In this document: piece by piece, positions 1 through 27,994 of the stretch
How the letters are laid out: every line of letters starts with the position of its first letter
Numbering within the stretch: the stretch's first letter is position 1
Origin: Parcubacteria group bacterium
GTDB lineage: Bacteria; Patescibacteriota; Minisyncoccia; Moranbacterales; UBA2206
NCBI GenBank assembly: GCA_041659505.1
Contig: JBAZYF010000001.1
Location: 189,274-253,273, forward strand
Direction of reading: 5' to 3'
DNA: 64,000 nt
Notes under the pieces: model-generated
Databases searched by the model: none
What the model was told of the DNA's origin: nothing
Seen by the model: the letters and a program-made list of their open reading frames with translations, nothing else
Made by a program: the position numbers and the translations under genes

Positions 1-188
1 CGGTTTTTGTTTAGCATTTTTTTGTAGGGACAAATCTTGTATTTGTCCTCCCCTTGGATTTTGTTTGTCCTGAAATTTGTGTTTATCCTGATTCAAGGAC
101 AGACGCAAGGTCTGTCCCTACGATATTATGGGAAATTGAAAACGTGGATTGTTTTTGGGTTTGACTCCTCAAACCCCTACAAAATCCT

Positions 189-240
189 GCCAATCATTCA
201 ACCCAGAAAACCACAGTTTCGGACAATCAATCCGCACTCA
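189..240. repeat. conserved ~50-nt module GCCAATCATTCAAYCCAGAAAAYCAYRGTTTCGGACA, copy downstream of the ATPase1 stop
   Basis: ~85% identical to 1709-1760 and 15633-15666; partial copies abut all four LamG stop codons. Confidence 0.6.
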
Positions 241-2090: not shown

Positions 2091-2135
2091 AATAAAATCA
2101 TGTCAATCCTTTAATCAGAAAAATCATAGTTCAGA

Positions 2136-5100
2136 CTACTGAAAATTCAACGCACTAGAATTATTATACAATTGCTTCACTTGTTCGGCGGTGAGGGCGT
2201 AGTTGAAAATTTTGACTTCGTCGATTTGGCCGGAGAAGGGATATGACGGATTCATAGATCCTACTGATACATCACCAGCGTGAAGGTTCCAGTATTTATC
2301 TTCTGACGCCATAAATGCTCCATTTTTATATAAATAAACATCTACGCCGTCATAAACAGCAACAACATGGGTCCAAGTGTTCAAGGGTTGAGTGCCAAAA
2401 GATGTGGGATAATAATCATCACCATAGCTTATAACTCCCAGATAATCATTATCATTAATGGCAATTCCAAATATACCAGCATACCCGGTTTCCCCATACC
2501 AAGCCAATGCTTCAGTATAATTCTGGTCAGCGGTTCTATTAAACCATAATGACATAGTTCTTGGAGCAAAACCTATAGGCAAGTTACTTCCTGATGCTGT
2601 CACATAATCATCCCCCCCATCAAAATTCAAACTGGCGCCGTATTTTCCGGTTCGGCCGTTGTACCAGGGGGTGTTGGCGTTGGCGGAGCAGGTGCCGGCG
2701 GTGGTTTGGCCGGAAGCGCCAAGATTAATCGTGCCATCGTTGCCGTTGCCGGATTCGTCGTGCACTGTGCTTCCCTGACATTCATTAAACCGCCACGCCG
2801 CGACCGGTTTGCCTTGATTATATTCCCAAGCAATCTGCGCCGGTGTGCGGGCGTAGTCATAGATGCGGACTTGGTCGATTTGGCCAGGGAAATAATAAGA
2901 ACTGCCAAGAGAGTTTCCAAAACGCACCGGATAACCTCCAGTATCAAGCGTTTCCGTCGCACTGCCGGCACTTTTTCCATCAACATAGATTTTTTGCGCG
3001 TTACTCGTGCTAGTAAAAGCGACATAGTGCCATTTATTATCCAGCACATCAATGCTGGAAGTCGCACTGCCAGAAGAATCCCCATCAGCAATACAAGTGA
3101 TTGTGTTTCCGCTATACCCAGCTATGCAAGATACGCCAAGCTTACTAACAGTTCCTCCGTATGCGCCGGGCGATCCCTTAAGCCAGAAAGAATATGTTGC
3201 ACCGTTTACAAAAGCAAAATTGTTAGCAGACTCAATATAATCATCCACCCCATCAAACGCGCAAGCTGAGCCGTATTTGCCTTGGGCGGCGCAGTTCATT
3301 CCGGTGGCATTGGCCCCATAATGCGTCGTGCCGTTGTTGCCGTTTCCGCTGGTGTCATAGATCGTTTGATTGTCGCCAGCCACTTTTTCATCCATCTTCC
3401 ATTCCCCCACCGGCGTGGCGCAAGCGGTTGTGTCGCCCGGGACACAATATTTTCCGCTCGAGGCATTAGTCGGCGCGCCGGTCGTCGAGACCGATCCGCC
3501 AGCGCCCATCTGCGCCGACACTCCGGAGTTGTAGTCGGTTTTGATTTCGTCTTCGGTGAGAGCGTAGGGGTAGATTTTGAGATCGTCGAGTTCACCGTTA
3601 AAATAATAGATCGGAACAGCTTCGGAGCTATCTCTTCCAATACTCAAAGGCATCGCTGAATAACTTAGCGCTTGCCCCGGGCCATAGCCATTGGCAGTAT
3701 ATATCATTGAAGTTTCTTTTCCATCCAGATACGCTTTTGCATCTGAAGAATTTCCATTTGTCGGAGAAAATGTCACGACAAGATGGTGCCAAACGCTATC
3801 GGTCACTGAACCAGTCGGCAAGTCCCAATAGGGATAGGCTGATCCTGTCATAATTTCAAATCGCGCATGACCATCATTCATCACGAGCAGTGAATAACTT
3901 TTATTAGAGCTTGTATCCACCGGCTTGTTTACAATTATGCCCGAATCATTTGGAGCCCTTTTTAGCCAGGTAGAAATTGTCAGCGAACTTGGTCGAAGCG
4001 CTGTGCTATCTGACACGTTCACATAATCATTCCCATCAAAACTAAGCGCCTTGCCATTTTTGCCGTCATTGGTCCAAGTTGGCGAGGATGAGCCGACGCC
4101 TAGGTTTCCGGCCAAACTTGTTCCGCCAAAACCGGAATTATGCGCCAAAGAGCCGTAGCCTTCGTTGAAATCATACACAGCGACTGGGTTGTGTTCGCCA
4201 TTGTTCATGTCCTCCAAAATCTGCTGTTGCGTGCGGGCATAGTTGTAGATGCGGAAATCATCAATAGCGCCATCAAAATACCTACTTCCAAATTGCGCAC
4301 CAATTTGCATACTACTACCATCATCAACCGTCCCCGCCACCTGGCTATTTTGAAAAACTCCATCAACATAAAGACTGTTGTTAGTACCCGCATGCAGAAA
4401 TTCTATGTGATGCCAGTTTCCACCACCCACAGCCACATTGGAGACAAGATCACTTCCACCGGGTATAGCAAAAGCAATTTTATTGCCATAGCCCATGGAA
4501 GAATTTAAAACTGCATAGAAATACCAGCCTCTAGTAAATAGCACCGAATTGACTGTTGTATCTTTGCTTTTTGTCCAGAACGAAATTGAAAAATTAGGTT
4601 CCAAGGAAAATGCCGGAATATCCACAACATCATCCACCCCATTAAAGCTCAGCGCCGTGCCGTATTTCCCTGATACAAATGGCGCTGTTACATTCTCAAC
4701 ATTTCCGCCTTCCCAATCATCAATCCGTCCGCTAGTTCCGTACAGTAAAACAAAACCTGACGAACCGCTGGTCAAATTGCTGTCGACATAACTAGTTTTT
4801 TCCACGCCGTTGATATAGCCTTTGAGTGTATTCCCCACGACTGCGAACTTAAAGATATCACCATTGGCCGGCGCAGATATGACCACATTTGCAAGTGTCG
4901 AATTGGAACCGCCAAGTGAGCGACCAAGTATCATCCTCCAACTTCCATCATAAAAAACAAATGCGTAGTAAGTATTTTGAGTAGACCCATCTGATCGACT
5001 CAGGAGACTATATTCCGTGTCGGCATTAACTGTATCTAGTTTTATCTGGGAATATTGATCGGCATTTAAGCTATTAGCATTCCAAATAAAAACACTCGCG

Positions 5101-8000
5101 TCACTAGTCGCAGTCTGCCCAACCGTCGTGCTGGAAATAATCTGCGCTGCGCCGCCGTTATAGACTTCAGTCCAGTTAGAACCAAGTGTTGGTCCGGCTC
5201 GATTGAAATCATCCGTCGCAACTGACGTGTAAGAATATGTGACGTCTGAGCCTTGATAATTTCCATCGTTGCCATTTTCGCTCGAATCGCTTATGGTTGT
5301 TCCATTGTGATCATCCATTTTCCAGTGGCCGACCGGGCCGGGTGCCCACTGATAGAGACGCTCCACCTCATCGGCGGACAAGGCGCGGTTGTAGATGCGG
5401 GTTTCGTCGATCGAGCCATTAAATGGATAGGCACCATTGCTACTATGCGCTCCGATTCGAAGAGGATAATCATTGGCTCCGATTCCGCCAGCATATATCG
5501 TTGGCGTGCCAACAGGCGAGCCATTGGCATAAAATTTGATAGTAGCACCATCATATGTTAAAGCTACATTAGTCCACACTCCATCCGGAACGAGATAGCC
5601 ACTACTTAAATCACTTGAATCTGAGGCGGGCGAAGAGTTTCCTAAAAAACATCCCAGATTATTGTCTATAAGATCAAGAAAATAATTACTTTCATCATTA
5701 TTTCCATATCCTTTATTAACTATCATAGCATAACCGGGGTTATTGCCATTTCTTTTTATCCAAGCGGAAATCGTAATATTTGACGGATCCAAACTCCCAT
5801 TGGCCGGGTCGCCCGCATCTATATATTTACCATTCGTTCCAGTGAAAACTCCCCCATTACCAAATTTTCCTCCGGCGGTCGTCGCTCCTCCAGCGGATGT
5901 TCCGTTATTGTTGTTGCCACTAGCATCTTTCACTTCTCCGCTCGTGCCGTTCCAACTCGCTTCGTCCATTTTCCAATAGCCAACTAGACCATCGGTCATC
6001 CACTTGTCGGAACTGCCCCCGAAAGTAGCGCTCGCTCCGGTTTTGGCTTGACCCATACCAGCGAGCCCAGCATTGTAGTCGGCTAAAATTTGCGCTTGCG
6101 TGCGGGCGTAGGGGTAGATTTTTGGTTCGTCGATGGAACCAGTGAAATAATTGCCACCGCCACTATAACCACCAACCGTAAAATAAGTATCATTATACAG
6201 TGTAGCTGGAATTGTTCCGGTATAATTAATACTGACTTGAGTTCCGTTTTTATACAATTTTAAGCGCCCAGAATTTCCTGATTGCGTGCCATCAAAAACC
6301 ATCGTCAAATAAATCCATTGGTTGTCTTCCAAGATATTTGAATCCGACCAGCCATAGTTATTTCCATCCGAGAATAATAACACATCATCTTCCCCACCTT
6401 CACCAGCGTAAGATGTTTCTATTCCCATTCCAGTGGATGAACCAAGATATGAACCCAAAATCAGCTTAAACTCGCCGGGATTATTCGGTTTCACCCATGC
6501 AGACATCGAAACATAAGAATCTCCCGACAGCGGAGCATTCCAAGATGTAGTTACAATACTGCTTGTCCCATCAAACCCCAAACACTTCCCACTCACACAC
6601 TCGCTCTCCGGCTTCCAGGTTGCGCCGGTGATGGTGCCGTCGTTTCTGTTTGAAGTTTCGTCGTGCGCAGTTGCGCCTTGGCCTTCGTCAAATGACCAAT
6701 AGCCGACCGGAGCTGGCGATATTTCTTCGGTGCCTAGCGCGCCGACGGAGTAGGTTGACGCTTCAGTGGAAAAATTGGTGGGGAAGATTGTGTAGGTATA
6801 ATTAGACTCGTCATTGCGATTAAATCCAGTTTCTTCACTGACCCAATTGAAAGTCGATCCGTTTTGGGTTGAAGTAATTGTCGCGCCGGTGGTGGAGGGG
6901 GTGAGGACTTGCCGAATGTAAAGATTATCTATATAAACAGTTCCTGTACAAATCCACCCGTTGGCCGTTCTAACATAAGTGCCCGTATTTGTTAGATATG
7001 CGTTATATGTCGTCCAATTACCTCCACCAGCAAACTGATACCATCCGCTTGAATCCCAGTCAGAATCAATAAATTGAAAATAGCAATTTTCGCCACTAGC
7101 TGTTCTAGCATCAAATGTCGCTGAATATAGAGCACCAGTTGTTGCTGGAACATCGCTTGAATAAGCATATAAATAATCAATACCCAGAGAAATAGCATAA
7201 CTCCCAACATGCTGAGCTCCTCCGCCGACAATACCAATAGCTCCCCCAGCATCCACATACCAAGAACCATAAGTATTGGCTTCTGTCTGCTGATCGCTTG
7301 CCGCCGTATTGTTGGACGATATATCACTTCCATATGTCTCCCCACTTCCCGCCGCTTTAACGTAGCCGGTCAACTTTAATCCCGCATGATCAGCAATAAT
7401 TAATTTGCTATTCAAATTATTAGTGAGCACATTCGCTGCGGAGAAATCGACAAAAGCTGTGCCGTTGACAATCGACAGTTTCATATTAGCTTGTGTCACT
7501 GCCCCGGTCTGCGTCTGAGCAAAACCATTTTCCGCGCTGGTATTGCCATAATACTGCCAAATGGCTTGCTGGCCAGCAGGGAAAGAGTCAAAGCTGACAT
7601 AGACGGAAGTATTGGCTGTTCCGCAGCCGGAAACAATCAGATAGGGCATAATTTTGCCATCATTCTTGGTGAAACGTAAATCTCCGCAATCGGCTTGGAA
7701 TTTGGTGGTGTCCGAAGTGTCCACGGTGAGAGCCACATAGACATTTGTTTGCACACTACCACTGTTGGTCAGTTGGATCGATTTACGAAAAGCCCATTTT
7801 TCATCCCACCAAGAAGCTTCGGTTTTTCGGCCGGAGAACCAGAAGTAAATTGGTAAAATTATGATGACAAGCAGAATGGCCAGGGCGAGGGTTTTGATTT
7901 TTTTGGAACGGAAAATTCTTTTGCCAAATTTGGCAAATCTAAATAGGCCACGGAGAATGGTTAGCAGTGTGCGTTGGAATTTTTGTTTCAACTTTGGCAT
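2136..8000 (-). CDS. giant secreted/cell-surface protein LamG1: signal-anchor TM + DUF2341-like domain + six LamG (Laminin_G_3/ConA-like) domains, 1,954 aa
   Basis: N-terminal TM (LALAILLVIIILPIYFWF). ASWWDEKWAFRK...DLRF...YYGN matches DUF2341. Six repeats of the LamG C-terminal strand motif ID[ED]x[KR]I[YF]xxALxxxE[IV]. C-terminus ...AEQVKQLYNNSSALNFQ shared with three paralogs. Confidence 0.85.
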   Translation of the reverse strand: MPKLKQKFQRTLLTILRGLFRFAKFGKRIFRSKKIKTLALAILLVIIILPIYFWFSGRKTEASWWDEKWAFRKSIQLTNSGSVQTNVYVALTVDTSDTTKFQADCGDLRFTKNDGKIMPYLIVSGCGTANTSVYVSFDSFPAGQQAIWQYYGNTSAENGFAQTQTGAVTQANMKLSIVNGTAFVDFSAANVLTNNLNSKLIIADHAGLKLTGYVKAAGSGETYGSDISSNNTAASDQQTEANTYGSWYVDAGGAIGIVGGGAQHVGSYAISLGIDYLYAYSSDVPATTGALYSATFDARTASGENCYFQFIDSDWDSSGWYQFAGGGNWTTYNAYLTNTGTYVRTANGWICTGTVYIDNLYIRQVLTPSTTGATITSTQNGSTFNWVSEETGFNRNDESNYTYTIFPTNFSTEASTYSVGALGTEEISPAPVGYWSFDEGQGATAHDETSNRNDGTITGATWKPESECVSGKCLGFDGTSSIVTTSWNAPLSGDSYVSMSAWVKPNNPGEFKLILGSYLGSSTGMGIETSYAGEGGEDDVLLFSDGNNYGWSDSNILEDNQWIYLTMVFDGTQSGNSGRLKLYKNGTQVSINYTGTIPATLYNDTYFTVGGYSGGGNYFTGSIDEPKIYPYARTQAQILADYNAGLAGMGQAKTGASATFGGSSDKWMTDGLVGYWKMDEASWNGTSGEVKDASGNNNNGTSAGGATTAGGKFGNGGVFTGTNGKYIDAGDPANGSLDPSNITISAWIKRNGNNPGYAMIVNKGYGNNDESNYFLDLIDNNLGCFLGNSSPASDSSDLSSGYLVPDGVWTNVALTYDGATIKFYANGSPVGTPTIYAGGIGANDYPLRIGAHSSNGAYPFNGSIDETRIYNRALSADEVERLYQWAPGPVGHWKMDDHNGTTISDSSENGNDGNYQGSDVTYSYTSVATDDFNRAGPTLGSNWTEVYNGGAAQIISSTTVGQTATSDASVFIWNANSLNADQYSQIKLDTVNADTEYSLLSRSDGSTQNTYYAFVFYDGSWRMILGRSLGGSNSTLANVVISAPANGDIFKFAVVGNTLKGYINGVEKTSYVDSNLTSGSSGFVLLYGTSGRIDDWEGGNVENVTAPFVSGKYGTALSFNGVDDVVDIPAFSLEPNFSISFWTKSKDTTVNSVLFTRGWYFYAVLNSSMGYGNKIAFAIPGGSDLVSNVAVGGGNWHHIEFLHAGTNNSLYVDGVFQNSQVAGTVDDGSSMQIGAQFGSRYFDGAIDDFRIYNYARTQQQILEDMNNGEHNPVAVYDFNEGYGSLAHNSGFGGTSLAGNLGVGSSSPTWTNDGKNGKALSFDGNDYVNVSDSTALRPSSLTISTWLKRAPNDSGIIVNKPVDTSSNKSYSLLVMNDGHARFEIMTGSAYPYWDLPTGSVTDSVWHHLVVTFSPTNGNSSDAKAYLDGKETSMIYTANGYGPGQALSYSAMPLSIGRDSSEAVPIYYFNGELDDLKIYPYALTEDEIKTDYNSGVSAQMGAGGSVSTTGAPTNASSGKYCVPGDTTACATPVGEWKMDEKVAGDNQTIYDTSGNGNNGTTHYGANATGMNCAAQGKYGSACAFDGVDDYIESANNFAFVNGATYSFWLKGSPGAYGGTVSKLGVSCIAGYSGNTITCIADGDSSGSATSSIDVLDNKWHYVAFTSTSNAQKIYVDGKSAGSATETLDTGGYPVRFGNSLGSSYYFPGQIDQVRIYDYARTPAQIAWEYNQGKPVAAWRFNECQGSTVHDESGNGNDGTINLGASGQTTAGTCSANANTPWYNGRTGKYGASLNFDGGDDYVTASGSNLPIGFAPRTMSLWFNRTADQNYTEALAWYGETGYAGIFGIAINDNDYLGVISYGDDYYPTSFGTQPLNTWTHVVAVYDGVDVYLYKNGAFMASEDKYWNLHAGDVSVGSMNPSYPFSGQIDEVKIFNYALTAEQVKQLYNNSSALNFQ

Positions 8001-8048
8001 ATGTCTGAACCACTGATTCGCACGTGATTTTCCTGATTACACGTGATT
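7994..8048. repeat. ~55-bp direct repeat, left copy (includes the LamG1 start codon and CACGTGATT x2)
   Basis: TTGGCATATGTCTGAACCACTGATTCGCACGTGATTTTCCTGATTACACGTGATT; second copy at 8428-8483 with ~3 mismatches. Confidence 0.8.
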
Positions 8049-8057
8049 AAGAGGAAC

Positions 8058-8447
8058 TTACTTAATATATCTTCTAACTTCCAAACTTTTTGCTCCGAAA
8101 TTAATCAATAGTCCTACTTTAACTTTATAGGCTTCAATGTAATTTATCAACTGAGCAACATTTACTTCTTCCAGTTTTGTGATGGCTTTTAGTTCTACCA
8201 TGATGTCACCATCAACTAGGAAATCGACTCTTCTTTTACCAATCATCGCGGATTCGTAAAAGATATCCATTTCTTTCTCTCTTTCAAATTTCAAATCTTC
8301 TTTGCTAAATTCTATTTCCAGTGCGCGTTGGTAGATTACCTCTTGAAATCCATTGCCTAGATACTGATGAACTTTTTGCGCACAGCCGATAATCTTTCCG
8401 GTTATGTCGGATTTGTAGTATTTATTGTTGGCATATGTCTGAACCAC
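8058..8447 (-). CDS. GxxExxY family protein (PD-(D/E)xK nuclease superfamily; family known from 23S rRNA intervening sequences)
   Basis: GFQEVIY matches the GxxExxY motif; ~125 aa size; C-terminal GLLINFG. ORF begins at a GTG that lies inside the direct repeat. Confidence 0.7.
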   Translation of the reverse strand: MVQTYANNKYYKSDITGKIIGCAQKVHQYLGNGFQEVIYQRALEIEFSKEDLKFEREKEMDIFYESAMIGKRRVDFLVDGDIMVELKAITKLEEVNVAQLINYIEAYKVKVGLLINFGAKSLEVRRYIK

Positions 8448-8483
8448 ATGATTAGCACGTGATTTTCCTGATTACACGTGATT
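8428..8483. repeat. ~55-bp direct repeat, right copy
   Basis: TTGGCATATGTCTGAACCACATGATTAGCACGTGATTTTCCTGATTACACGTGATT; it supplies the first ~6 codons of the GxxExxY ORF. Confidence 0.8.
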
Positions 8484-8543
8484 TAATTTAAGATTTCCCC
8501 AATCAGTGAAATCAGCGTAATCAGTGATAATCAGTGGTTCAGA
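8484..8543. repeat. short tandem AATCAGTG repeats plus partial LamG 3'-flank module (GTGGTTCAGACTACTGG)
   Basis: AATCAGTGAAATCAGCGTAATCAGTGATAATCAGTGG; GTGGTTCAGAC is the reverse complement of TGTCTGAACCAC in the adjacent direct repeat. Confidence 0.55.
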
Positions 8544-11500
8544 CTACTGGAAATTCAACGCGCTAGAATTATTATACAGTTGCTTGACTTGTTCGGCGGT
8601 GAGGGCGTAGTTGAAAATTTTGACTTCGTCGATTTGGCCGGGGAAAAAATAGCCATTATTTGAACTACCTAAATAAAGAGGAACTGAATCGCTGGATACA
8701 ATATTGCCAGTAGCAGCGGCATGATTTCTTGCGATGCCATCAACATAAATATAGACATTCGCTCCATCATAAATTCCCGTAATAAAATGCCAACTATTGT
8801 CCCAAACAATATTTCCTGAATCACCAGAAATAACTCCTCCGCTATTCGTAGTATGGACTCCGAACTGTAAATTTCCCGCACTTCCGGTGTACAATAAGTA
8901 CCCATAGCTCAAAGGAGCATCGCTTTTCCACACTAACCCTTCCCAATTTCCTGGGCTACTACTTTTTGCCCACATTGATACTGTCATACTATTCCCTGTT
9001 ATGTTCAAACTTGAACTATTGCTCACCAATGCCCAATCATCCCCCCCATCAAAATTCAAACTGGCGGCGTATTTTCCGGTTCTTCCATTATACCACGGTG
9101 TATTAGCATTGGCACTACAGGTGCCGGTGGTGGTTTGGCCGGAGGCGCCGAGATTTAATGTGCCGGTGTTGCCATTGCCACTGTCATCATGAATCGCCGT
9201 TCCCTGACACTCATTCATCCGCCACTCGGCAATCGGCCGCCCTTGATTATATTCCCAAGCAATTTGTGCCGGCGTGCGGGCGTAGTTGTAGATGCGGACT
9301 TGGTCGATCTGGCCGCCATAAGGATGCTCCCCGATCTGGCTATTGCCGATAGCGAGACCATAGCCGGTTACTGGAGTTCCGGTGTTTGAAGATCCTGACT
9401 GGGCGCCGTTTATATATAAGGTTCCTGTACCATTGCTTAAGCGCACTCCACAAACATACTGCCAAGTATTCAAATTTAAAGTTTTATCCGAAATTACAGC
9501 GCTAGATCCGTCATCGCTAGTTAAAGCCAAATTAGCTCCGTGATTATAGCTCATGAAAACAAATCTTGAGTTGCTGACTATCCCATCAAAAACATTCTTG
9601 CCCTGTGGTTTTATCCAGGCGCAAACAGTGACGGTGTTGGTGGAAATCAGATCAGTTCCGAGAGCCGCATAATCATCCACCCCATCAAACGTGCAGGCTT
9701 TGCCGACTTTTCCCGGTTGGGTGCAATCCATCCCGGTGTTGTTGGCGCCGTCAACGGTTGTGCCGTTGTTGCCGTTGCCGGAAGTGTCGTTGAGGTTTTT
9801 AGCGTCGCCAGATACTTTTTCATCCATCAGCCATTCCCCCACCGGTGCTGAGCATGTCGAAGTGTCGCCCGGCACGCAATACTGGCGTGAGTCGGAATTG
9901 CTAGGAGCGCCAGCCGAAGTCGTCCCGGAACTCCCCACCACTGCTGAGTAGCCGGAGTTGTAGTCGGATTTGACTTCGTCTTCGGTGAGGGCATAATTAT
10001 ATAATTTGACATCATCAAAAACCCCGCCAGCGTAGGCTGGTGAATTATCGAGCGATCTTCCACCAATAATTATTTTTTGGGCTGTTAGGGATTCAATGTC
10101 TCCCGAAAGAGCAAGGCTCGCTTCCAATTTTCCATTAATAAATATTTTTTTAGTATCACTACTGTCAAAAGAAAATACAAAATGATACCATTGTCCGCTT
10201 TGCATAACTGTTGTCCCAGTAGTATCGTGATAACTACCAATCCAATCACTGAAATGAGCTTTATGATCAGGATCTACAGCAACGACCCACTCACCACCCC
10301 AATCACCGCCATTAAAATATTTTGATATTTCACATGATTCCCCTGCGGTCGGCTTGCACCAATAGGAAACGGAAAATTCCGGACGAGCGCCATATGTTCC
10401 TGCATCGACATAATCATTCGTCCCATCAAAACTAAGCGCCTTGCCGTTTTTGCCGTCATTAGTCCAAGTCGGCGCGGATGATCCGACACCTAAGTTTCCA
10501 GCTAAACTTGCACCGCCATAACCGGAATTATGTGCTACAGAGCCGTAGCCTTCGTTGAAATTGTAATTGGCGATTGGTTGACTATTGCCTCCTCCGCCTG
10601 CTGGCTCCGGCGTGCCAAGCATATCATCCAAAATCTGCTGTTGGGTGCGGGCGTAGTTATATACACGGACGTCGTCGATTAATCCTAGAAAAGGATCCTC
10701 GGAAGGACCACTCGCGATATAAAGATCATAGCTAGTATTACCCACCGCCAAATAACTGCCCCAATCATAAGTGTAGGTATTTACACCGTCTACATAATAG
10801 ACAACCTTATAGCCATCATAGGTGGCAGAAACAAAATGCCATTTTCCATCCGTCACAACAGTTGGCGCATTTTGCGCTCTGAACGTTCCGCCGGAAAGAA
10901 TATACAAATACAACCTGCCCAGAGTATCCGTTCCAAACCACCAGCCATTGTCGTTATAGAGTTGCTTTTTGGCAAATAAATTCCAACCTGCGTGAGAACT
11001 ATTAATCCACATGCCGACCGACACGGTGCCGGAACTTTGCAAGCTGGAACCATTGCCACAATTTATCCAATCATCCACCCCATCAAAATTGCAAGCTGAA
11101 CCAAACTTGCCCGGCACAGTGCAATCCATTCCAGTGGTGTTGGCGCCGTAGTGGGTGGTGCCGTTATTGCCATAAGTCGAATCATCAGCAATCGTTTTTG
11201 CGTCCCCTTGTACTTTTTCATCCATCTTAAGATGCAAGACCGGCCCGGGTGCCCATTCGTAGAGTTTTTTAATTTCAGAAGGAGAAAGCGCGCGGTTGTA
11301 GATACGGGTTTCGTCGATTTTTCCCGGAAAATAATAATTACCTCCACCAATATATTCCCCCATTCTAACATTTGGGGTGAGTAAAGATAACGTAGCCGAA
11401 GTTTGATTATTTTTTTCGCCGTTTAGGTACATAATCAGATTCTTTCCCGAAAAATCATACACTATTGAAAAATGATACCAAGTATTCTGGGTAATTGTTC

Positions 11501-13868
11501 CGGTGCTTGAAAGATATAATCCATCAGCGGGGTCTTGAAAGTTTAACTGATTTGAAGTAATATGAATTTGTTTTTGAAAATCTAAATCAATAATATGATC
11601 TTCGGAAGTATCATTAACATTTCGATAGAACCAGCCAGAAATCGAAAAACTATTGTCGAATGCTGTTGCATCATTTAAAGCACCTACATTTACATAATCA
11701 TCCCCCCCATCAAAACTCCCCCCATTGCCAAATTTTCCTCCCGCAGTCGTAACGCCTCCGGCGGATGTTCCGTTATTATTGTTGTCACTAGCGTCTTTCA
11801 CTTCCCCGCTCGTGCCGCTCCAACTCGCTTCGTCCATTTTCCAATAACCGACCAGGCCGTCGGTGAGCCATTTTGTTGATTCGGAGCCAAAGGCAGCCGA
11901 CGCGCCTTGGGGGGCGCTTTGGCTTGCCAAGCCGGCGTTATAATCCTGCAAAATCTGCGCTTGCGTGCGGGCGTAGGGGTAGATTTTTGGTTCGTCGATG
12001 GAGCCTTGAAACAATGAATCTGTATTAACTGCTCCACCACCAAACCAAGCGCCTATCCGCAATTTATCACCTGTAGGAATTGAAGCAGAACTGGAATCTG
12101 TCCCTTTACTCACACCGTCTAAATACATTTCAAAGTCGTTGCCACTCCGGGTTAAAATGATGTGATGCCATTGATTAGTGGATGGGTCAACTCCGAGAGA
12201 AAAATACAACTGGCCTATTCCGCTGGTTCCAAACCAAAACTCCATGGCCGAATCTCCGCTATTATAAAACCATTCCCAGTCCATACTACCATATTCATCC
12301 CGCTTGCTCATCAATGTTTTATATGCGGATCCCGTTGTCCATGTTTTAGAATTAAACCAAAGAGAAAGAGTAAAATCTCCTGTCATATCAAGACTGCTAT
12401 CGTTGCCCATATCCACATAATCACTCGTCCCATTAAACGAAAGACACTTCCCACTCACACAATCACTCTCCGGCTTCCACGTCGCCCCGGTGATGCTGCC
12501 GTCATTTTTGTTGGCACTTTCATCGTGCGCGACCGCGCCTTGACCTTCATCGAATGACCAATAGGCGACCGGGGCTGGCGATATTTCTTCGGTTCCCAGC
12601 GCGCCAACAGAATAGGTTGACGCTTCGGTGGAGAAATTGGTGGGGAAAATTGTGTAGGTATAGTTAGAAGTATCATTGCGATTGAAACCACTTTCCTCAC
12701 TCGTCCAATTGAATGTCGAGCCATTTTGGGTCGAAGTGATGGTGGTGCCGGTAACAGAGGGAGAAATAATCTGCCTAGCAGAGGCATCATCCACTCTAAA
12801 ACTCTTGCCGACTGGTGAGATGGGGCTCCACCAGTTTGGATCAATGCCTTGAGCTATATCTGCTTTTGTCCTGTACCCACCACAACTAGTCCAGGCTGTA
12901 TCGCCACTGTCAATAGAACATAAGTTATAATAATCAAAAGTTTGGAAAAGACAAGCACCATCTGTTTGATCAACATTGCGCAGCCAGATACTCATATAGT
13001 AAAGTGCACCGGACGTAAATATGATATCCGATGAGGCCCCTGCCGTATTGCCAGTTGCCAAAACATTCAACGAATACGCTCCTGAGCTCCCCGGCCTCGG
13101 ATCAGTCACTCGACTGAGTGTCGCGTACCAGGCATGCCAATCGGAAGGCGGATCGCCAGTTTCAAATCCGGGATTTAATACTAATTCGCTTCCCAGCGAC
13201 TCCCCTGACCCCGCCGCCTTGATATAGCCAATCAATTCTAATCCTGCATTATCGGCAATAAACAGTTTGCTATTCAAATTATTAGTGAGAACGTTGGCAG
13301 CAGAAAAATCGACAAAAGCGGTGCCGTTAACAATGGATAGTTTCATATTCGCTTGCGTCACTGCTCCCGTCTGCGTCTGAGTAAAACCATTTTCCGCACC
13401 GGGGTTGCCATAATATTCCCAAATGGCTTGCTCACCTGCCGGGAAAGTTTCAAAGCTGACATAGACCGAAGTATTGGCCGTTCCGCAACCGGAAACAATC
13501 AGATAGGGCATAACCTTGCCGTCATTCTTGGTGAAACGCAAATCTCCGCAATCGGCTTGGAATTTAGTCGTGTCGGAAGTGTCCACGGTGAGCGCGACAT
13601 AGACATTCGTTTGCACTGCTCCGCTGTTGGTCAGTTGGATTGATTTGCGAAAGGCCCATTTTTCATCCCACCAGGAAGCTTCGGTGCTTCTGCCAGAAAG
13701 CCAGAAGTAAATTGGTAAAATTATTATCACTAATAAAATGGCCAGGGCGAGGGTTTTGGCTTTTTTGGATTGAAAAATTCTTTTCAAAAATTTGGCGAAT
13801 TTAAACAGGCCACGGATGAGGTGGAGCATTAGGCGTTGGAATTTTTGTTTGAGGGTTGGCATTTTCAA
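8544..13868 (-). CDS. giant cell-surface protein LamG2: TM + DUF2341-like + six LamG domains, 1,774 aa
   Basis: same domain motif order as LamG1; N-terminus MKMPTLKQKFQR..., identical C-terminus; real start may be the second ATG (13862). Confidence 0.85.
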   Translation of the reverse strand: MKMPTLKQKFQRLMLHLIRGLFKFAKFLKRIFQSKKAKTLALAILLVIIILPIYFWLSGRSTEASWWDEKWAFRKSIQLTNSGAVQTNVYVALTVDTSDTTKFQADCGDLRFTKNDGKVMPYLIVSGCGTANTSVYVSFETFPAGEQAIWEYYGNPGAENGFTQTQTGAVTQANMKLSIVNGTAFVDFSAANVLTNNLNSKLFIADNAGLELIGYIKAAGSGESLGSELVLNPGFETGDPPSDWHAWYATLSRVTDPRPGSSGAYSLNVLATGNTAGASSDIIFTSGALYYMSIWLRNVDQTDGACLFQTFDYYNLCSIDSGDTAWTSCGGYRTKADIAQGIDPNWWSPISPVGKSFRVDDASARQIISPSVTGTTITSTQNGSTFNWTSEESGFNRNDTSNYTYTIFPTNFSTEASTYSVGALGTEEISPAPVAYWSFDEGQGAVAHDESANKNDGSITGATWKPESDCVSGKCLSFNGTSDYVDMGNDSSLDMTGDFTLSLWFNSKTWTTGSAYKTLMSKRDEYGSMDWEWFYNSGDSAMEFWFGTSGIGQLYFSLGVDPSTNQWHHIILTRSGNDFEMYLDGVSKGTDSSSASIPTGDKLRIGAWFGGGAVNTDSLFQGSIDEPKIYPYARTQAQILQDYNAGLASQSAPQGASAAFGSESTKWLTDGLVGYWKMDEASWSGTSGEVKDASDNNNNGTSAGGVTTAGGKFGNGGSFDGGDDYVNVGALNDATAFDNSFSISGWFYRNVNDTSEDHIIDLDFQKQIHITSNQLNFQDPADGLYLSSTGTITQNTWYHFSIVYDFSGKNLIMYLNGEKNNQTSATLSLLTPNVRMGEYIGGGNYYFPGKIDETRIYNRALSPSEIKKLYEWAPGPVLHLKMDEKVQGDAKTIADDSTYGNNGTTHYGANTTGMDCTVPGKFGSACNFDGVDDWINCGNGSSLQSSGTVSVGMWINSSHAGWNLFAKKQLYNDNGWWFGTDTLGRLYLYILSGGTFRAQNAPTVVTDGKWHFVSATYDGYKVVYYVDGVNTYTYDWGSYLAVGNTSYDLYIASGPSEDPFLGLIDDVRVYNYARTQQQILDDMLGTPEPAGGGGNSQPIANYNFNEGYGSVAHNSGYGGASLAGNLGVGSSAPTWTNDGKNGKALSFDGTNDYVDAGTYGARPEFSVSYWCKPTAGESCEISKYFNGGDWGGEWVVAVDPDHKAHFSDWIGSYHDTTGTTVMQSGQWYHFVFSFDSSDTKKIFINGKLEASLALSGDIESLTAQKIIIGGRSLDNSPAYAGGVFDDVKLYNYALTEDEVKSDYNSGYSAVVGSSGTTSAGAPSNSDSRQYCVPGDTSTCSAPVGEWLMDEKVSGDAKNLNDTSGNGNNGTTVDGANNTGMDCTQPGKVGKACTFDGVDDYAALGTDLISTNTVTVCAWIKPQGKNVFDGIVSNSRFVFMSYNHGANLALTSDDGSSAVISDKTLNLNTWQYVCGVRLSNGTGTLYINGAQSGSSNTGTPVTGYGLAIGNSQIGEHPYGGQIDQVRIYNYARTPAQIAWEYNQGRPIAEWRMNECQGTAIHDDSGNGNTGTLNLGASGQTTTGTCSANANTPWYNGRTGKYAASLNFDGGDDWALVSNSSSLNITGNSMTVSMWAKSSSPGNWEGLVWKSDAPLSYGYLLYTGSAGNLQFGVHTTNSGGVISGDSGNIVWDNSWHFITGIYDGANVYIYVDGIARNHAAATGNIVSSDSVPLYLGSSNNGYFFPGQIDEVKIFNYALTAEQVKQLYNNSSALNFQ

Positions 13869-13884
13869 ATTTTATTATTCCCCC

Positions 13885-13910
13885 GTAGAGACGAGGCACT
13901 GCCTCGTCTT
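13885..13910. repeat. PE copy GTAGAGACGAGGCA-c-TGCCTCGTCTTGG, ~20 nt upstream of the LamG2 ATG
   Basis: on the gene strand: ...CGTCTCTACgggggaataataaaatttgaaaATG. Confidence 0.75.
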
Positions 13911-13945
13911 GGGCATTATTTTTCACCTCGTCTTGGGTTAAATTT
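13900..13945. promoter_or_regulatory. direct-repeat array of CCTCGTCTTGG half-sites (~27-bp spacing, 3 copies including the PE arm) in the LamG2 leader
   Basis: cctcgtcttgggcattatttttcacctcgtcttgggtta; parallels the 4-copy array at 21148-21250. Confidence 0.5.
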
Positions 13946-13991
13946 TTCTGCGTTTTGCTGTTGTTGGTTTGCGCATTGACGTTGTTAGTTC

Positions 13992-14017
13992 TAGACGTGG
14001 CAATGCCACGTCTCTAC
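13992..14017. repeat. PE copy, stem variant TAGACGTGGCA-a-TGCCACGTCTCTAC
   Basis: same GTGG/CCAC variant as 2065-2090. Confidence 0.75.
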
Positions 14018-14049
14018 AATTAGAATATAACGTATTAGAATATGCATAT

Positions 14050-14078: not shown

Positions 14079-14179
14079 AACAAAAAATCCTTAAAAAACA
14101 GGTTTTCAAATAAAAATTGGGCGTGGTAATTCGGGCGGTTTGAGTTTGCTTTTTTTGCTGTTAATTGAGCGCGCTAAAA

Positions 14180-15478
14180 TTATTTTAAATCTAAAAGCCA
14201 TTTCCAAACCGGAACTATTTTGATTTTTTTGCCTTTTATCTCTCGCTTCTCTTCCTGATTCTCGGTGATAATCAGTCCATTTTTAAGCTTAAACTTTTCC
14301 ATCGCTTCCAAGAGTCCCGCCAATTCCCTTTTTTCGTTATTATTATCCAACACCTTCGTCACCTGAATCGCTTCTGTTATTTTTCGTCCTTCTCTGACGA
14401 CAAAATCACATTCATGTTTTTCAAAATGGTAATAGATTTCTTTTCCCGCTTCTAAAAGGCCCAAAAAAACTGTGTTTTCCAAAAAACGGCCAAAATTTTC
14501 ACTAAACGAAAATGAGACTGCACTGATAAAGCTATTGTCGATCGCATAGGCTTTTTTGGGATAATTTTCCTGCTTTTTAAGCGAGTATTGATAGTTAGAC
14601 AGTTCGAACAAGAGAAAAGATTTTTCAAAAAATCCGATATATTCCTTGACGGTCTTATCATTCATCTGCAAAAAATCCGCTAGTGCGTTATAGCTGTACT
14701 TTTGGCCGATGTTGGAAAAAAGGTAGAGCAAAAGATTTTCGATTTCCCGAGTTTTTTTCACTTCAAAGCGCGGAACAATATCTTGATAGAGAATGTTTTT
14801 GTAATAATTGATTAGAATTTCTTGCCTGATTTCCTTCTTCTTTTCCAGGACTATTTCCGGAAAACCGCCAACTTTCAAGTATTCTCCGAAAACTTTTTTT
14901 AATTTTCCTTCGTTTCTTATCTGCTCCACCGCGCTACGCACTTCAATTTTTCTGGCGTCCGCTATTTCCGCCAAATTAAACGGGTAGATCTTTTTGGCAA
15001 TCGATCGGCCGGAAAGTAGTGTAGCCATCTCTGCCGAAAGCAGCCGAGAATTTGATCCGGTAATAAAAAATTTTACCCCGCCTTTCTCATAGAGACTTTT
15101 GACAAAAACTTGCCAATCGGAAAAAAACTGAACTTCATCCAGAAAAACAAACACTTTGCCCTTTGGTTCGACCAGCGCCAAATATTCCTCGAAAATTTTC
15201 GCAAGATTTCCCGGATCATTCTTGAAGCGATTAAGCAAGGGCGATTCCAAATTAAGTAGCAAGATATTTTTTGGTTTGACCTTTTTTTCTTGTATCAAAA
15301 ATTCGATCAATTGCCTGGCAACGGTTGATTTCCCGCTTCTTCGGACGCCCACCAAAGCCACAATTTGCCTGATATTGAGATATTTGACAAGTTCCACGAG
15401 AATTGCCCGCGGAAAGCCAACCTCCAGCGCTGTGCCCGCCCAATGCCTATTTTGCTCAACGATAAATTTTTCAAACAT
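14180..15478 (-). CDS. COG1373-type AAA+ ATPase with DUF4143/PD-(D/E)xK-like C-domain, ATPase2
   Basis: GVRRSGKST Walker A, VFLDEVQF Walker B, C-terminal HECDFVV...EAIQVTK. Confidence 0.8.
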   Translation of the reverse strand: MFEKFIVEQNRHWAGTALEVGFPRAILVELVKYLNIRQIVALVGVRRSGKSTVARQLIEFLIQEKKVKPKNILLLNLESPLLNRFKNDPGNLAKIFEEYLALVEPKGKVFVFLDEVQFFSDWQVFVKSLYEKGGVKFFITGSNSRLLSAEMATLLSGRSIAKKIYPFNLAEIADARKIEVRSAVEQIRNEGKLKKVFGEYLKVGGFPEIVLEKKKEIRQEILINYYKNILYQDIVPRFEVKKTREIENLLLYLFSNIGQKYSYNALADFLQMNDKTVKEYIGFFEKSFLLFELSNYQYSLKKQENYPKKAYAIDNSFISAVSFSFSENFGRFLENTVFLGLLEAGKEIYYHFEKHECDFVVREGRKITEAIQVTKVLDNNNEKRELAGLLEAMEKFKLKNGLIITENQEEKREIKGKKIKIVPVWKWLLDLK

Positions 15479-15529: not shown

Positions 15530-15597
15530 ATTGAGATGTCAATTTAATCTATTTTCCCCTGAATGTTGTTGTTTTGCGCGTTGCTGTTTTCAGGTCT

Positions 15598-15623
15598 AGA
15601 CGAGGCAATGCCTCGTCTCTACA
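15598..15623. repeat. PE copy TAGACGAGGCA-a-TGCCTCGTCTCTAC
   Basis: inverted repeat; preceded by the conserved block GTTGTTGTTTTGCGCGTTGCTGTTTTCAGG also seen upstream of LamG2 and LamG3. Confidence 0.75.
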
Positions 15624-15632
15624 GGAATCATG

Positions 15633-15666
15633 CCAATCATTTAATCAGAAAAATCATAGTTTCGGA
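15633..15666. repeat. LamG 3'-flank module, full copy, directly downstream of the LamG3 stop
   Basis: GCCAATCATTTAATCAGAAAAATCATAGTTTCGGACTACTGG. Confidence 0.65.
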
Positions 15667-21162: not shown

Positions 21163-21172
21163 TGCCTCGTCT
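21148..21172. repeat. PE copy GTAGAGACGAGGCA-c-TGCCTCGTCTTAGG, ~20 nt upstream of the LamG3 ATG
   Basis: gene strand: ...CGTCTCTACagggaaacaaaaaattcaaaaATG. Confidence 0.75.
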
Positions 21173-21250
21173 TAGGTTAATATTTTCACCTCGTCTTGGA
21201 CATTATTTTTCATCTCGTCTTGGGTTAATATTTTCACCTCATCTTGATGT
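21173..21250. promoter_or_regulatory. iteron-like array, ~4 copies of TTAATATTTTCACCTCGTCTTGG (~27-bp period)
   Basis: ttaatattttcacctcgtcttggaca / ttatttttcatctcgtcttgggttaa / tattttcacctcatcttgatg seen directly. Confidence 0.55.
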
Positions 21251-21310
21251 TAATTTTTCTGCGTTTTGTTGTTGTTATTATTGGTTTGTACGTCGACGTG
21301 GTTCTTTTCC

Positions 21311-21336: not shown

Positions 21337-21355
21337 AGAATCCGAATAATCGGGC

Positions 21356-27990: not shown

Positions 27991-27994
27991 GTCT

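What the first reader, a model, noticed from the sequence alone, without database searches (positions are those of the whole stretch)
7994..8543. GxxExxY (PD-(D/E)xK) gene inserted as a cassette with ~55-bp direct repeats in the slot the other units fill with an AAA+ ATPase
In three LamG units a COG1373 ATPase gene lies between successive LamG genes. Between LamG2 and LamG1 a 129-aa GxxExxY protein occupies the same slot. It is bracketed by a 55-bp direct repeat (7994-8048 / 8428-8483) that contains the LamG1 start codon and two CACGTGATT boxes. The GxxExxY ORF begins inside the repeat at a GTG. A short inverted copy of the repeat end (GTGGTTCAGAC) and AATCAGTG tandem repeats lie on the far side. 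GxxExxY proteins are known as selfish-type passengers of 23S rRNA intervening sequences. This looks like a cassette integrated by recombination at the LamG 5' region.
Basis: partly seen in the sequence, partly recalled or inferred. Interest (0 to 1): 0.65.

Follow-up and report, generated by a model that had tools for sequence, protein, structure and literature searches.

The report
Nuclease gene inside conserved hairpin element
The small GxxExxY nuclease-like gene between two giant LamG genes is a rearranged copy of a conserved hairpin-flanked gene module that recurs between operon genes in Patescibacteria, often as an empty hairpin, which suggests an undescribed, widespread passenger element.

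Summary
A 55/56-nt direct repeat (7994-8048 and 8428-8483; 20/20, a 1-nt indel, then 34/35) brackets an intact 129-codon GxxExxY / PD-(D/E)xK ORF (8058-8447, minus strand). It occurs nowhere else in the window.

The interpretation needs revising. The repeat is not LamG 5'-UTR. It is the 3' arm of a conserved element, plus 8 nt of the LamG1 start.

Close homologues (76-91% identity) in other Patescibacteria sit in unrelated operons, flanked by the same arms: TCTGAACCACTGATT..CACTGATT.. upstream and ..AATCAGTGGTTCAGA downstream. These arms pair into a stem that encloses the ORF. ORF-less hairpins of the same family occur in many genomes, including at two orthologous sites that are filled in one genome and empty in another.

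The window copy is rearranged: a complete empty hairpin (8438-8543), then the ORF with its first five codons replaced by arm sequence (only a GTG start remains), then a second 3' arm next to the LamG1 ATG.

Synonymous sites between cassettes are saturated, yet the arms stay 88-100% identical, so the arms are functional.

The closest analogues are 23S-rRNA intervening sequences and REPIN/RAYT systems. It is a member of neither. The mechanism is inferred, not shown. No empty allele of this particular junction was found.

The parts
8544..13862 (-). LamG2 giant surface-protein gene. Its TAG stop (8546-8544) is followed with 0 nt of spacing by the 5' arm.
   Evidence: The start at ATG 13862 is assigned from the shared N-terminus MP(K/T)LKQKFQR with LamG1 and LamG3.
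8501..8543 (-). 5' arm of the hairpin element: TCTGAACCACTGATTATCACTGATTACGCTGATTTCACTGATT, with four TGATT units spaced 9-10 nt apart.
   Evidence: Its first 26 nt are 100% identical to the arm in L004 and 88-92% identical to those in L093, L104, L010 and L121.
8484..8500 (-). Apical loop of the ORF-less hairpin (GGGGAAATCTTAAATTA).
   Evidence: fold. It is homologous to the loop of the hairpin that follows the ORF in L004.
8438..8483 (-). Proximal copy of the 3' arm (AATCACGTGTAATCAGGAAAATCACGTGCTAATCATGTGGTTCAGA). It contains the GTG 8447 that starts the ORF.
   Evidence: Together with the 5' arm it forms the complete hairpin 8438-8543, which scores 105.5 bits (E 7e-25) against the hairpin model R1.
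8428..8437 (-). Duplicated CATATGCCAA, the last base of the arm region plus a copy of the LamG start. Its ATG (8434-8432) is out of frame with GxxExxY and opens a 10-codon ORF (MPTINTTNPT*).
   Evidence: Read directly from the sequence. It is the end of direct-repeat copy 2.
8058..8447 (-). GxxExxY / PD-(D/E)xK ORF of 129 codons. The N-terminal VVQTYA replaces the family's M(D/E)KY(I/V).
   Evidence: E36, D75, E85-x-K87, Q99, N102 and Y103 are invariant in the alignment. AF2 pLDDT is 83.9. The best PDB fold hits are Cas4 (4ic1), exonucleases and restriction-enzyme-like folds.
8049..8057 (-). 9-nt linker between the stop codon and the distal 3' arm.
8004..8048 (-). Distal copy of the 3' arm (AATCACGTGTAATCAGGAAAATCACGTGCGAATCAGTGGTTCAGA). 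It pairs with the 5' arm to enclose the ORF in the minimum-energy fold.
   Evidence: Duplex energy with the 5' arm is -50.7 kcal/mol, against -48.7 for the proximal copy.
7994..8003 (-). CATATGCCAA, containing the LamG1 start codon (8000-7998). It is the end of direct-repeat copy 1.
2136..8000 (-). LamG1 giant surface-protein gene, downstream of the cassette.

Best explanation
WHAT IT IS (shown)
- The region is one copy of a conserved module of Patescibacteria: a small PD-(D/E)xK (GxxExxY) gene embedded in a hairpin-forming element.
- The element has two arms of about 45 nt, built from CAC(N)TGATT units spaced 9-10 nt apart. Its termini are invariant: GAACCACTGATT ... AATCAGTGGTTC.
- In the canonical form the ORF sits in the apical loop, so the arms form a stem that encloses it.
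- The module is wedged between operon genes and is always co-oriented with the upstream gene. The 5' arm often starts 0-1 nt after that gene's stop codon.
- The same hairpin also exists without an ORF at many sites, in either orientation.
- The window copy is a rearranged variant: [empty hairpin 8438-8543] + [ORF lacking its native first five codons, fused in frame to arm sequence] + [second 3' arm 8004-8048] + LamG1 ATG.
- The 55-nt direct repeat is therefore a duplicated 3' arm plus 8 nt (TATGCCAA) of a LamG start.

HOW THE REPEAT AROSE (inferred)
- It arose by a rearrangement within the tandem LamG array.
- My preferred version (about 0.4) is an illegitimate deletion. It would have fused the ATGCCAAC start of a lost LamG paralogue, one preceded by an empty hairpin, to codon 6 of a canonical cassette that followed that paralogue.
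- The alternatives are single-crossover integration through the arm, or tandem duplication followed by loss of one ORF.

HOW IT WORKS (inferred)
- The cassette has no promoter or terminator of its own and is read as part of the LamG2-LamG1 transcript.
- The single 5' arm can pair with either 3' arm. Pairing with the proximal arm buries the GTG start of GxxExxY. Pairing with the distal arm encloses the ORF and lies directly upstream of the LamG1 start.
- As in 23S-rRNA intervening sequences and Correia elements, the long imperfect duplex is a plausible RNase III substrate. Cleavage would separate the passenger mRNA from the host cistrons.
- The arms are conserved in sequence far beyond what pairing alone would need. 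The nuclease-fold protein is under strong purifying selection.
- I therefore propose that the protein recognises its own arms and the ORF-less hairpins, in a REPIN/RAYT-like relationship that maintains or spreads the hairpins.
For: Same arms, different neighbours:
- Identical or near-identical arms flank the homologous ORF next to unrelated genes. In L004 these are Fib_succ_major and a 4-helix-bundle gene. In L010 they are DUF2304 and GT2. In L148 the upstream gene is parB. L150 is in a TrbL-like region. L093, L104 and L121 add further contexts.

Filled versus empty orthologous sites:
- L128 (empty) versus L093 (filled), after the same GspE-like gene.
- L018 (empty) versus L104 (filled), between the same two genes.

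Hairpin family:
- The hairpin model R1 finds one full hairpin in the window, and hairpins in both orientations in 20 of the 40 other loci searched.
- Four architectures occur: arm-ORF-arm, hairpin-ORF-arm (the window), arm-ORF-hairpin (L004), and hairpin-ORF-hairpin (L150-154).

Folds:
- The arms form the closing stem in the minimum-energy folds of the window cassette, L104 and L121.
- The local hairpin has z = -6.9.

Selection:
- pS is 0.67-0.95 (saturated) against pN of 0.04-0.17.
- The 5' arm is 88-100% identical between the window and L004, L093, L104, L010 and L121 (62% to the more distant L148).

Protein:
- The catalytic signature is intact and the fold is PD-(D/E)xK.

Expression context:
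- No promoter or terminator signal above chance lies in the intergenic parts.
- The upstream gene is co-oriented in every one of about 14 independent contexts.
- Of 23 arm termini with a long ORF ending nearby, 17 lie within -5 to +2 nt of its stop codon.

Distant relatives:
- GxxExxY genes at 28-59% identity in seven other phyla occupy the same kind of operon slot.
- Most carry lineage-specific arms. In four of the eight examined the arms are mutually complementary.
- Verrucomicrobial copies at 36% identity keep the GAACCACTGATT..CAC terminus.

Array history:
- The array holds other relics of rearrangement, such as a LamG 3'-end relic after ATPase-2.
Against: - There is no transcript, cleavage or biochemical evidence. 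RNase III processing and protein-arm recognition are analogies only.
- Base pairs in the hairpin are almost invariant, so there is no covariation to show that the RNA or DNA structure itself is selected.
- Empty hairpins occur in both orientations relative to their neighbouring genes. This fits a DNA-level element better than a strand-specific RNA function.
- Some distant relatives have direct rather than inverted flanking repeats (L237, L239), so a stem around the ORF is not universal.
- Synonymous saturation between genomes means there is no sign of recent mobility. The different contexts could partly reflect genome shuffling.
- The window copy has lost its native ATG and has an out-of-frame ATG 13 nt downstream of the GTG, so it may be poorly translated or decaying.
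- No allele of this junction other than the one in the window was found, so the origin of the duplication cannot be resolved.
Confidence: 0.6

Rival explanations
1. First reader's model. A free cassette integrated by recombination into the 5' region of LamG1, and the 55-bp repeat is the duplicated or recombined LamG target (Campbell-type single crossover).
For: - The duplicated unit extends 8 nt beyond the arm into the LamG start (TATGCCAA). A single crossover of a circle carrying that segment would give exactly this structure.
- Two of the ATPase genes in the same array are also bracketed by 30-60-nt direct repeats of local sequence.
Against: - 47 of the 55 nt are the element's own arm, found next to the same ORF beside unrelated genes.
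- The ORF has lost its own first five codons, which a clean cassette integration would not cause.
- No integrase or recombinase is present in the 64 kb.
- The donor circle would already need to carry LamG-start sequence.
Confidence: 0.2
2. The hairpins are host intercistronic RNA elements (mRNA stabilisers, processing sites or attenuators, comparable to REP or Correia hairpins). The GxxExxY ORF is an unrelated passenger that lands in them and has no functional link to the arms.
For: - ORF-less hairpins fit snugly between stop and start codons.
- Other hairpin families with different sequences occupy similar gaps in the window, at 52130-52234 and around the 4-helix-bundle gene.
- There are no promoters or terminators.
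Against: - In this same genome the 4-helix-bundle gene uses entirely different arms, so arm type tracks ORF type.
- The GAACCACTGATT..CAC terminus accompanies GxxExxY genes that are only 36% identical, in Verrucomicrobia.
- The arms beside the ORF are conserved while synonymous sites are saturated. The arm relics after LamG1, LamG3 and LamG4, which lack an ORF, are degenerate.
Confidence: 0.2
3. Integron-type gene cassette, with the hairpin acting as an attC site.
For: - The ORF is promoterless and co-oriented, next to an imperfect hairpin with conserved ends and bulges.
- In L150-154 the ORF lies between two complete hairpins.
Against: - No IntI or attI is present in the window.
- The cassettes are scattered singly in housekeeping operons rather than in arrays.
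- The canonical ORF lies inside the hairpin, not between hairpins.
- The arm end GTTCAGA does not fit the GTTRRRY core.
Confidence: 0.03
4. A transposon insertion with a target-site duplication, or an assembly artefact at a repeat.
For: Direct repeats flank a small gene, and short contigs L002 and L003 break inside the distal arm.
Against: - 55 nt is far longer than known target-site duplications, and there is no transposase.
- The independent assembly contig L001 spans the whole structure at 100% identity, and L002 and L003 match it as far as they extend.
Confidence: 0.03

Closest known systems
23S rRNA intervening sequences (IVS) carrying an ORF, e.g. the Coxiella burnetii helix-45 IVS with S23p (PMC4990558)
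   Same: - A small ORF of unknown function is enclosed by a long stem formed from flanking inverted repeats.
- It is embedded in, and transcribed as part of, a host transcript.
- In the IVS the stem is cut by RNase III and the element is regarded as selfish or neutral.
- The window also holds a gene of the IVS-named family PF05635 with the same anatomy.
   Different: - It sits between protein-coding cistrons, not in an rRNA helix. There is no rRNA in the window or the related loci.
- The arms are a conserved, dispersed repeat family that also exists without an ORF.
- The ORF is a PD-(D/E)xK protein under strong purifying selection, whereas the Coxiella ORF is decaying.
- RNase III cleavage has not been tested.
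REPIN/RAYT systems (PMC3116915, PMC3337134)
   Same: - Hairpin-forming repeats of about 100 nt are dispersed in intergenic gaps.
- A protein gene is flanked by the same repeats in inverted orientation.
- Gene and repeats are conserved over long times. Here synonymous sites are saturated while the arms are conserved.
   Different: - The associated protein is a 129-aa PD-(D/E)xK fold, not an HUH/Y1 (IS200/IS605-like) transposase.
- The ORF commonly lies inside a single hairpin.
- Copy number per genome and co-occurrence could not be measured here.
Correia repeat-enclosed elements of Neisseria and similar MITEs (PMC2649163)
   Same: ORF-less hairpin elements of about 80-160 nt with terminal inverted repeats, lying next to genes and co-transcribed with them. 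Correia elements bind RNase III and are cut by it.
   Different: No TA target duplication is evident. The termini abut stop codons. An autonomous-looking partner ORF lies within the element. The host phylum and the sequence are different.
Integron gene cassettes with attC sites
   Same: Promoterless, co-oriented small ORFs associated with imperfect hairpins that have conserved ends.
   Different: There is no integrase, attI or array. The ORF lies in the hairpin loop. The core-site consensus is not met.

Membership tests
GxxExxY protein (TIGR04256) / PDDEXK_3 (PF13366) | Full-length HMM match above the curated cut-off | tested here: met
   PF13366 scores 128.8 bits against a cut-off of 22. TIGR04256 scores 132.1 bits against a cut-off of 35, covering model positions 2-116 of 116.
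GxxExxY protein (TIGR04256) / PDDEXK_3 (PF13366) | GxxExxY motif plus the D ... E-x-K catalytic signature | tested here: met
   G33-F-Q-E36-V-I-Y39, D75 and E85-L-K87 are invariant across 19 homologues.
GxxExxY protein (TIGR04256) / PDDEXK_3 (PF13366) | PD-(D/E)xK (restriction-endonuclease-like) fold | tested here: met
   The AF2 model has pLDDT 83.9 with an alpha-alpha-beta-beta-beta-alpha-beta-beta order. The top Foldseek PDB hits are all PD-(D/E)xK nucleases: Cas4 4ic1 (E 1.5e-3), LHK-Exo, AddAB and 3ijm. The E-values are weak. No solved structure was found by sequence.
GxxExxY protein (TIGR04256) / PDDEXK_3 (PF13366) | Nuclease activity | not testable with these tools
   Pfam and the 2012 survey list the family's function as unknown (PMC3424549).
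23S rRNA intervening sequence | Inserted in a helix of the 23S rRNA gene | tested here: not met
   There is no rRNA in the window or in 18 related loci. The element lies between protein-coding genes.
23S rRNA intervening sequence | ORF enclosed by a long stem formed from flanking inverted repeats | tested here: met
   for the window. for the canonical copies.
23S rRNA intervening sequence | Excision from the transcript by RNase III | not testable with these tools
   This needs transcript end-mapping or an in-vitro RNase III assay.
REPIN/RAYT system | Dispersed hairpin repeats, with the associated gene flanked by them in inverted orientation | tested here: met
REPIN/RAYT system | The associated gene encodes an HUH/Y1 (IS200/IS605-type) transposase | tested here: not met
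   The protein is a PD-(D/E)xK fold.
REPIN/RAYT system | Genome-wide co-occurrence of the repeat family with its gene, with many repeats per gene | not testable with these tools
   Only 8-kb fragments of each genome were retrievable.
Integron gene cassette | IntI integrase and attI adjacent to an array of cassettes | tested here: not met
   No integrase is among the window's ORFs, and the cassettes occur singly in operons.
Transposon with target-site duplication | A short (2-14 bp) duplication of target sequence and a transposase | tested here: not met
   The repeat is 55 nt, of which 47 nt is element sequence. No transposase is present.
MITE (Correia-like) | Terminal inverted repeats, multiple genomic copies, and a defined target duplication | tested here: inconclusive
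   Terminal inverted repeats and multiple copies are shown. No consistent target duplication was seen. The left end abuts TAA, TAG or TGA stop codons.

The most novel reading that the evidence does not exclude
GxxExxY proteins are the dedicated nucleases of a previously unrecognised class of hairpin replicators.

- The ORF-bearing hairpin would be the autonomous form and the ORF-less hairpins its dependants.
- The system would be vertically persistent and REPIN/RAYT-like, but built on a PD-(D/E)xK enzyme.
- It would live in the intercistronic gaps of operons, and in rRNA as IVSs, across Patescibacteria, PVC bacteria, Bacteroidota and other phyla.
- The long stems would double as RNase III sites that make the insertions harmless to the host operon.
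Probability: 0.25. Interest if true: 0.8.

Novelty: new variant of a known kind. Interest (0 to 1): 0.6.

Why it matters
- GxxExxY and four-helix-bundle 'IVS' proteins are among the commonest small hypothetical genes in Patescibacteria, Bacteroidota and PVC bacteria, yet the library I searched holds almost nothing on them. GxxExxY appears in 3 papers, none of them about its biology.
- This work shows that they come as hairpin-enclosed modules, with ORF-less counterparts and with filled and empty orthologous sites. That links the old puzzle of rRNA intervening sequences to a general class of operon passengers.
- It gives the protein a concrete candidate substrate: its own arms.
- It predicts RNA processing sites inside giant surface-protein operons.
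- It has practical consequences for annotation. Start and stop codons lie in or next to the arms, the window's start codon is a GTG created by the rearrangement, and contigs break at the arms.

Tried and rejected
1. Empty allele of the LamG2/LamG1 junction. A metagenome scan for GGTTCAGACATATGCCAA gave 16 loci, all chance matches without arms.
2. LamG1 N-terminus homologue search. The best hits were 49-57% identical and were not orthologous arrays.
3. L001, L002 and L003 are 100% identical to the window, so they add no population variation.
4. Rfam. Nothing reached gathering thresholds in the window or in 18 related loci, and only noise appeared at E <= 10.
5. RNAalifold covariation. The pairs are invariant, so this was uninformative.
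6. Viral contigs. 71 pattern matches were found. None passed a strict test for arm-like repeat units, and 5 passed a looser one.
7. PADLOC and PHROGs gave no informative hit for the GxxExxY or 4-helix-bundle proteins.
8. PDB by sequence. Only spurious MecA hits came up.
9. The idea that the repeat is the standard LamG 5' UTR was rejected.
10. The integron, transposon target-duplication and misassembly readings were rejected (see rival explanations).
11. A diversity-generating retroelement link through the Avd-like four-helix-bundle gene was considered. No reverse transcriptase is present in the window.
It therefore gives examples, not counts.

Full report
**1. Observation**

All genes in the region are on the minus strand.
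- LamG1 spans 2136-8000.
- The 129-codon ORF spans 8058-8447.
- LamG2 spans 8544-13862.
- AAA_14+DUF4143 ATPases lie at 250-1632, 14180-15478 and 21356-22642, between or after the other LamG paralogues.

The direct repeat is real. 7994-8013 equals 8428-8447 (20/20). After a 1-nt indel, 8014-8048 matches 8449-8483 at 34/35. It is unique in the window, and all four CACGTGATT boxes in the window lie in it.

Copy 1 contains the LamG1 ATG (8000-7998). Copy 2 contains the only in-frame start of the small ORF, the GTG at 8447.

The ORF is a full-length GxxExxY / PDDEXK_3 protein.

The 'short inverted copy' on the far side is really a 43-nt arm (8501-8543). It begins immediately after the LamG2 TAG and is complementary to the whole repeat. 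With the proximal repeat copy it forms a 106-nt hairpin (-46.6 kcal/mol, z = -6.9).

L001, from another assembly, spans the whole structure at 100% identity. L002 and L003 match it up to the point inside the distal arm where they end. It is not an assembly artefact.

**2. What the repeat is**

The protein has more than 100 relatives at 71-91% identity, mostly from Moranbacteria-like Patescibacteria. I retrieved their genomic contexts by protein identity only, so the sample is not biased towards any flanking sequence. Every one showed the same flanks.
- Upstream: TC(T/A)GAACCACTGATT-NN-CACTGATT..., ending just before the ATG.
- Downstream: ...AATCA(C)GTG-N-AATCAGG-AAAATCA(C)GTG-NN-AATCAGTGGTTC(A/T)GA.

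The neighbouring genes are unrelated to LamG:
- a Fib_succ_major protein and a four-helix-bundle gene (L004-L009);
- DUF2304 and a glycosyltransferase (L010);
- parB (L148);
- a TrbL-like region (L150-L159).

The arms therefore belong to the cassette, not to LamG. In the minimum-energy folds of the window cassette and of the canonical copies L104 and L121, the two arms form the closing stem around the ORF.

**3. Empty hairpins, and filled versus empty sites**

A pattern scan of one genome per species with GAACCACTGATTNNCAC returned many chance matches. It also returned about 35 genuine elements in Moranbacteria/Moraniibacteriota, Paceibacterota, Falkowbacteria and other Parcubacteria.

Many of these are hairpins of 78-163 nt with no ORF. 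Others are solo 5' arms. Four more carry the GxxExxY ORF.

Two pairs are orthologous sites.
- After the same GspE-like gene, L128 has the empty hairpin and L093 has the ORF in the hairpin loop. Both share the downstream flank caattaaaaaa.
- Between the same two genes, L018 is empty and L104 is filled.

A covariance model built from eight hairpins finds exactly one full hairpin in the window, at 8438-8543 (105.5 bits). It also finds hairpins in both orientations elsewhere.

Four architectures occur:
- arm-ORF-arm;
- hairpin-ORF-arm (the window);
- arm-ORF-hairpin (L004);
- hairpin-ORF-hairpin (L150-154, with variable numbers of tandem partial arms).

**4. The window copy is rearranged**

The alignment shows a window-specific block between the 5' arm and the ORF body, spanning about 67 alignment columns (roughly 50 nt net of what it replaces). 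The block is loop + 3' arm + CATATGCCAAC.

All homologues start M(D/E/K/N)KY(I/V/T)NNKYYKSD. The window protein starts (V)VQTYANNKYYKSD. So the native first five codons were replaced by arm sequence that happens to supply an in-frame GTG.

The duplicated unit runs 8 nt past the arm into a LamG start (TATGCCAA). LamG2 and LamG3 start ATGCCAAC..., as copy 2 does. The event therefore happened within the LamG array.

I favour a deletion that removed a LamG paralogue lying between an empty hairpin and a canonical cassette. The array contains other such relics, for example a 30-nt LamG 3'-end copy right after ATPase-2. A single-crossover integration, or a duplication followed by ORF loss, cannot be excluded.

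An out-of-frame ATG (8434) sits in the same context as the LamG1 start and opens a 10-codon ORF. Translation of this GxxExxY copy is therefore uncertain.

**5. Constraint**

Among eight cassettes, synonymous differences are saturated (pS 0.67-0.95) while pN is 0.04-0.17. The protein is under strong purifying selection.

The catalytic signature E36, D75, E85-x-K87 is invariant. The AF2 model (pLDDT 83.9) has a PD-(D/E)xK topology, and its best PDB neighbours are Cas4, RecB-type and lambda-type exonucleases, and restriction-enzyme-like folds, at weak E-values.

Despite that divergence, the first 26 nt of the non-coding 5' arm are 88-100% identical between the window and five of the other cassettes. 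The 12-bp termini are invariant in every hairpin.

Because the pairs do not vary, there is no covariation. The data cannot say whether an RNA or a DNA structure is selected.

The 5'-arm relics after the LamG1, LamG3 and LamG4 stop codons have no ORF and are degenerate.

**6. Position**
- The upstream gene is co-oriented in every independent context examined, about 14 in all.
- Of 51 exact arm termini, 23 have an ORF of at least 80 codons ending within -5 to +21 nt. Eight are at 0 nt, four at +1, and three use the arm's own TGA as the stop.
- The 3' arm is often followed within a few nucleotides by the next ATG.
- No promoter or terminator signal above chance lies in the gaps.

**7. Generality**

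GxxExxY genes at 28-59% identity on plasmids or chromids of Bacteroides, Bernardetia, Treponema, Gemmatirosa, Prevotella, Fusobacteria and Sphingomonas are likewise wedged, co-oriented, between operon genes. Examples are fabD-GxxExxY-fabG in Sphingomonas and radA-GxxExxY in Bacteroides.

Most are flanked by lineage-specific arms built from 8-10-nt units, but not all:
- The arms are inverted in four (L233-L236).
- They are direct in two (L237, L239), which echoes the window.
- L238 has an arm only upstream, and no flanking repeat was found in L232.

Verrucomicrobial copies only 36% identical keep the GAACCACTGATT..CAC terminus.

In the window itself, the four-helix-bundle 'IVS protein' gene (27995-28339) has the same anatomy but with (AATTTTGA)n arms. 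Arm type therefore tracks ORF type.

**8. Comparison with known systems**

The anatomy matches ORF-bearing 23S-rRNA intervening sequences (PMC4990558), but the location does not. No rRNA is present.

The relation between a gene and dispersed hairpins that also flank it matches REPIN/RAYT systems (PMC3116915, PMC3337134), but the protein is not an HUH transposase.

The ORF-less hairpins resemble Correia-type elements, which are RNase III substrates (PMC2649163).

The integron, transposon target-duplication and retroelement readings fail on defining features.

I found no description of this module. 'GxxExxY' occurs in three papers of the library, all incidental mentions. Pfam PF13366 is listed with unknown function. 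Rfam has no matching family.

**9. Verdict**

The feature is a rearranged member of a conserved family of hairpin-embedded nuclease gene modules, which appears to be undescribed.

The structural claims are well supported. The mechanism rests on analogy and needs experiments. That mechanism comprises co-transcription, alternative pairing, RNase III-type processing, and protein-arm recognition.

Noticed in passing
window 27950-28520: A four-helix-bundle '23S rRNA IVS protein' gene (27995-28339, PF05635/TIGR02436) lies between the 7019-aa giant gene and LamG4. It has the same anatomy as the GxxExxY cassette but different arms: a tandemly duplicated (AATTTTGA)n arm upstream, a local hairpin, and a (TCAAAATT)n arm downstream that contains the first listed start of LamG4. 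The minimum-energy fold encloses the ORF (z = -5.4).
   Followed up: partly
window 188-240 / 1708-1760; 14158-14187 / 15670-15699; 13959-14018 / 15564-15623: The AAA_14+DUF4143 ATPase genes match the PADLOC defence candidate PDC-S01 (E down to 1.8e-113). Two of them are also bracketed by direct repeats of 30-60 nt (83-85% identity, about 1.5 kb apart). These repeats are made of LamG 3'-end, arm-relic or REP sequence. ATPase-3 instead appears to split an arm relic.
   Followed up: partly
window 2096-2135, 15625-15666, 22710-22728, and ~1712-1750: Degenerate solo 5' arms (TCTGAAC.ATGATTTTTCTGATTAAA.GATTG.CATGATT) start directly after the stop codons of LamG1, LamG3 and LamG4. This suggests that the ancestral LamG unit already ended in such an arm.
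   Followed up: partly
window 52130-52234: Another hairpin of about 105 nt, with a different sequence (TTCCAAAT-type units), fills the gap between the stop codon of the gene upstream of lgt and the lgt start. This genome therefore has several families of intercistronic hairpins.
   Followed up: no
35 loci including L013-L131: The arm termini abut stop codons with nucleotide precision. There are 8 cases at 0 nt, 4 at +1, and 3 in which the arm's own TGA is the stop codon.
   Followed up: partly
L025, L036, L045, L069, L092, L103, L110, L112, L122, L126 (Opitutales and other Verrucomicrobia): A related repeat, GTTGAACCACTGATTAACACTGAT(G/A)AACACTGAT, recurs in PVC genomes. One Opitutales MAG gave five hits. 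In L126 and L122 it flanks GxxExxY genes that are only 36% identical to the window protein.
   Followed up: partly
L238 (Sphingomonas chromid), L235 (Bacteroides), L234, L233, L236, L237, L239: Distant GxxExxY genes sit inside housekeeping operons (fabD-GxxExxY-fabG-acpP-fabF; radA-GxxExxY) with lineage-specific arms such as CCACAGAGG units. In L237 and L239 the flanking repeats are direct, as in the window.
   Followed up: partly
window 13889-13909, 13993-14013, 15598-15618, 1020-1045, 2008-2033, 2066-2091, 21300-21340, 49800-49890: REP-like hairpins of the form (GT)AGAGACG(A/T)GGCAnTGCC(T/A)CGTCTCTAC are scattered through the LamG array. In addition, 24-nt tandem repeats (AAGACGAGGTGAAAA...) lie upstream of LamG2 and LamG3 (13902-13948, 21166-21259).
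   Followed up: no
window 56456-57150: A nucleotidyltransferase gene plus a substrate-binding (MNT/HEPN-like) gene lie next to ddl, overlapping the end of its listed ORF. This is another small passenger-type module among the cell-wall genes.
   Followed up: no
L004 6001-6815 and inverted copy 10250-11064; L005-L009: In a Moranbacteria relative the GxxExxY cassette is followed directly by a bAvd-like four-helix-bundle gene. In related contigs (L005, L006, L009; spaced further apart in L007 and L008) two PDC-S01-type ATPase genes lie further downstream. The same three gene families that fill the LamG slots therefore travel together elsewhere.
   Followed up: no
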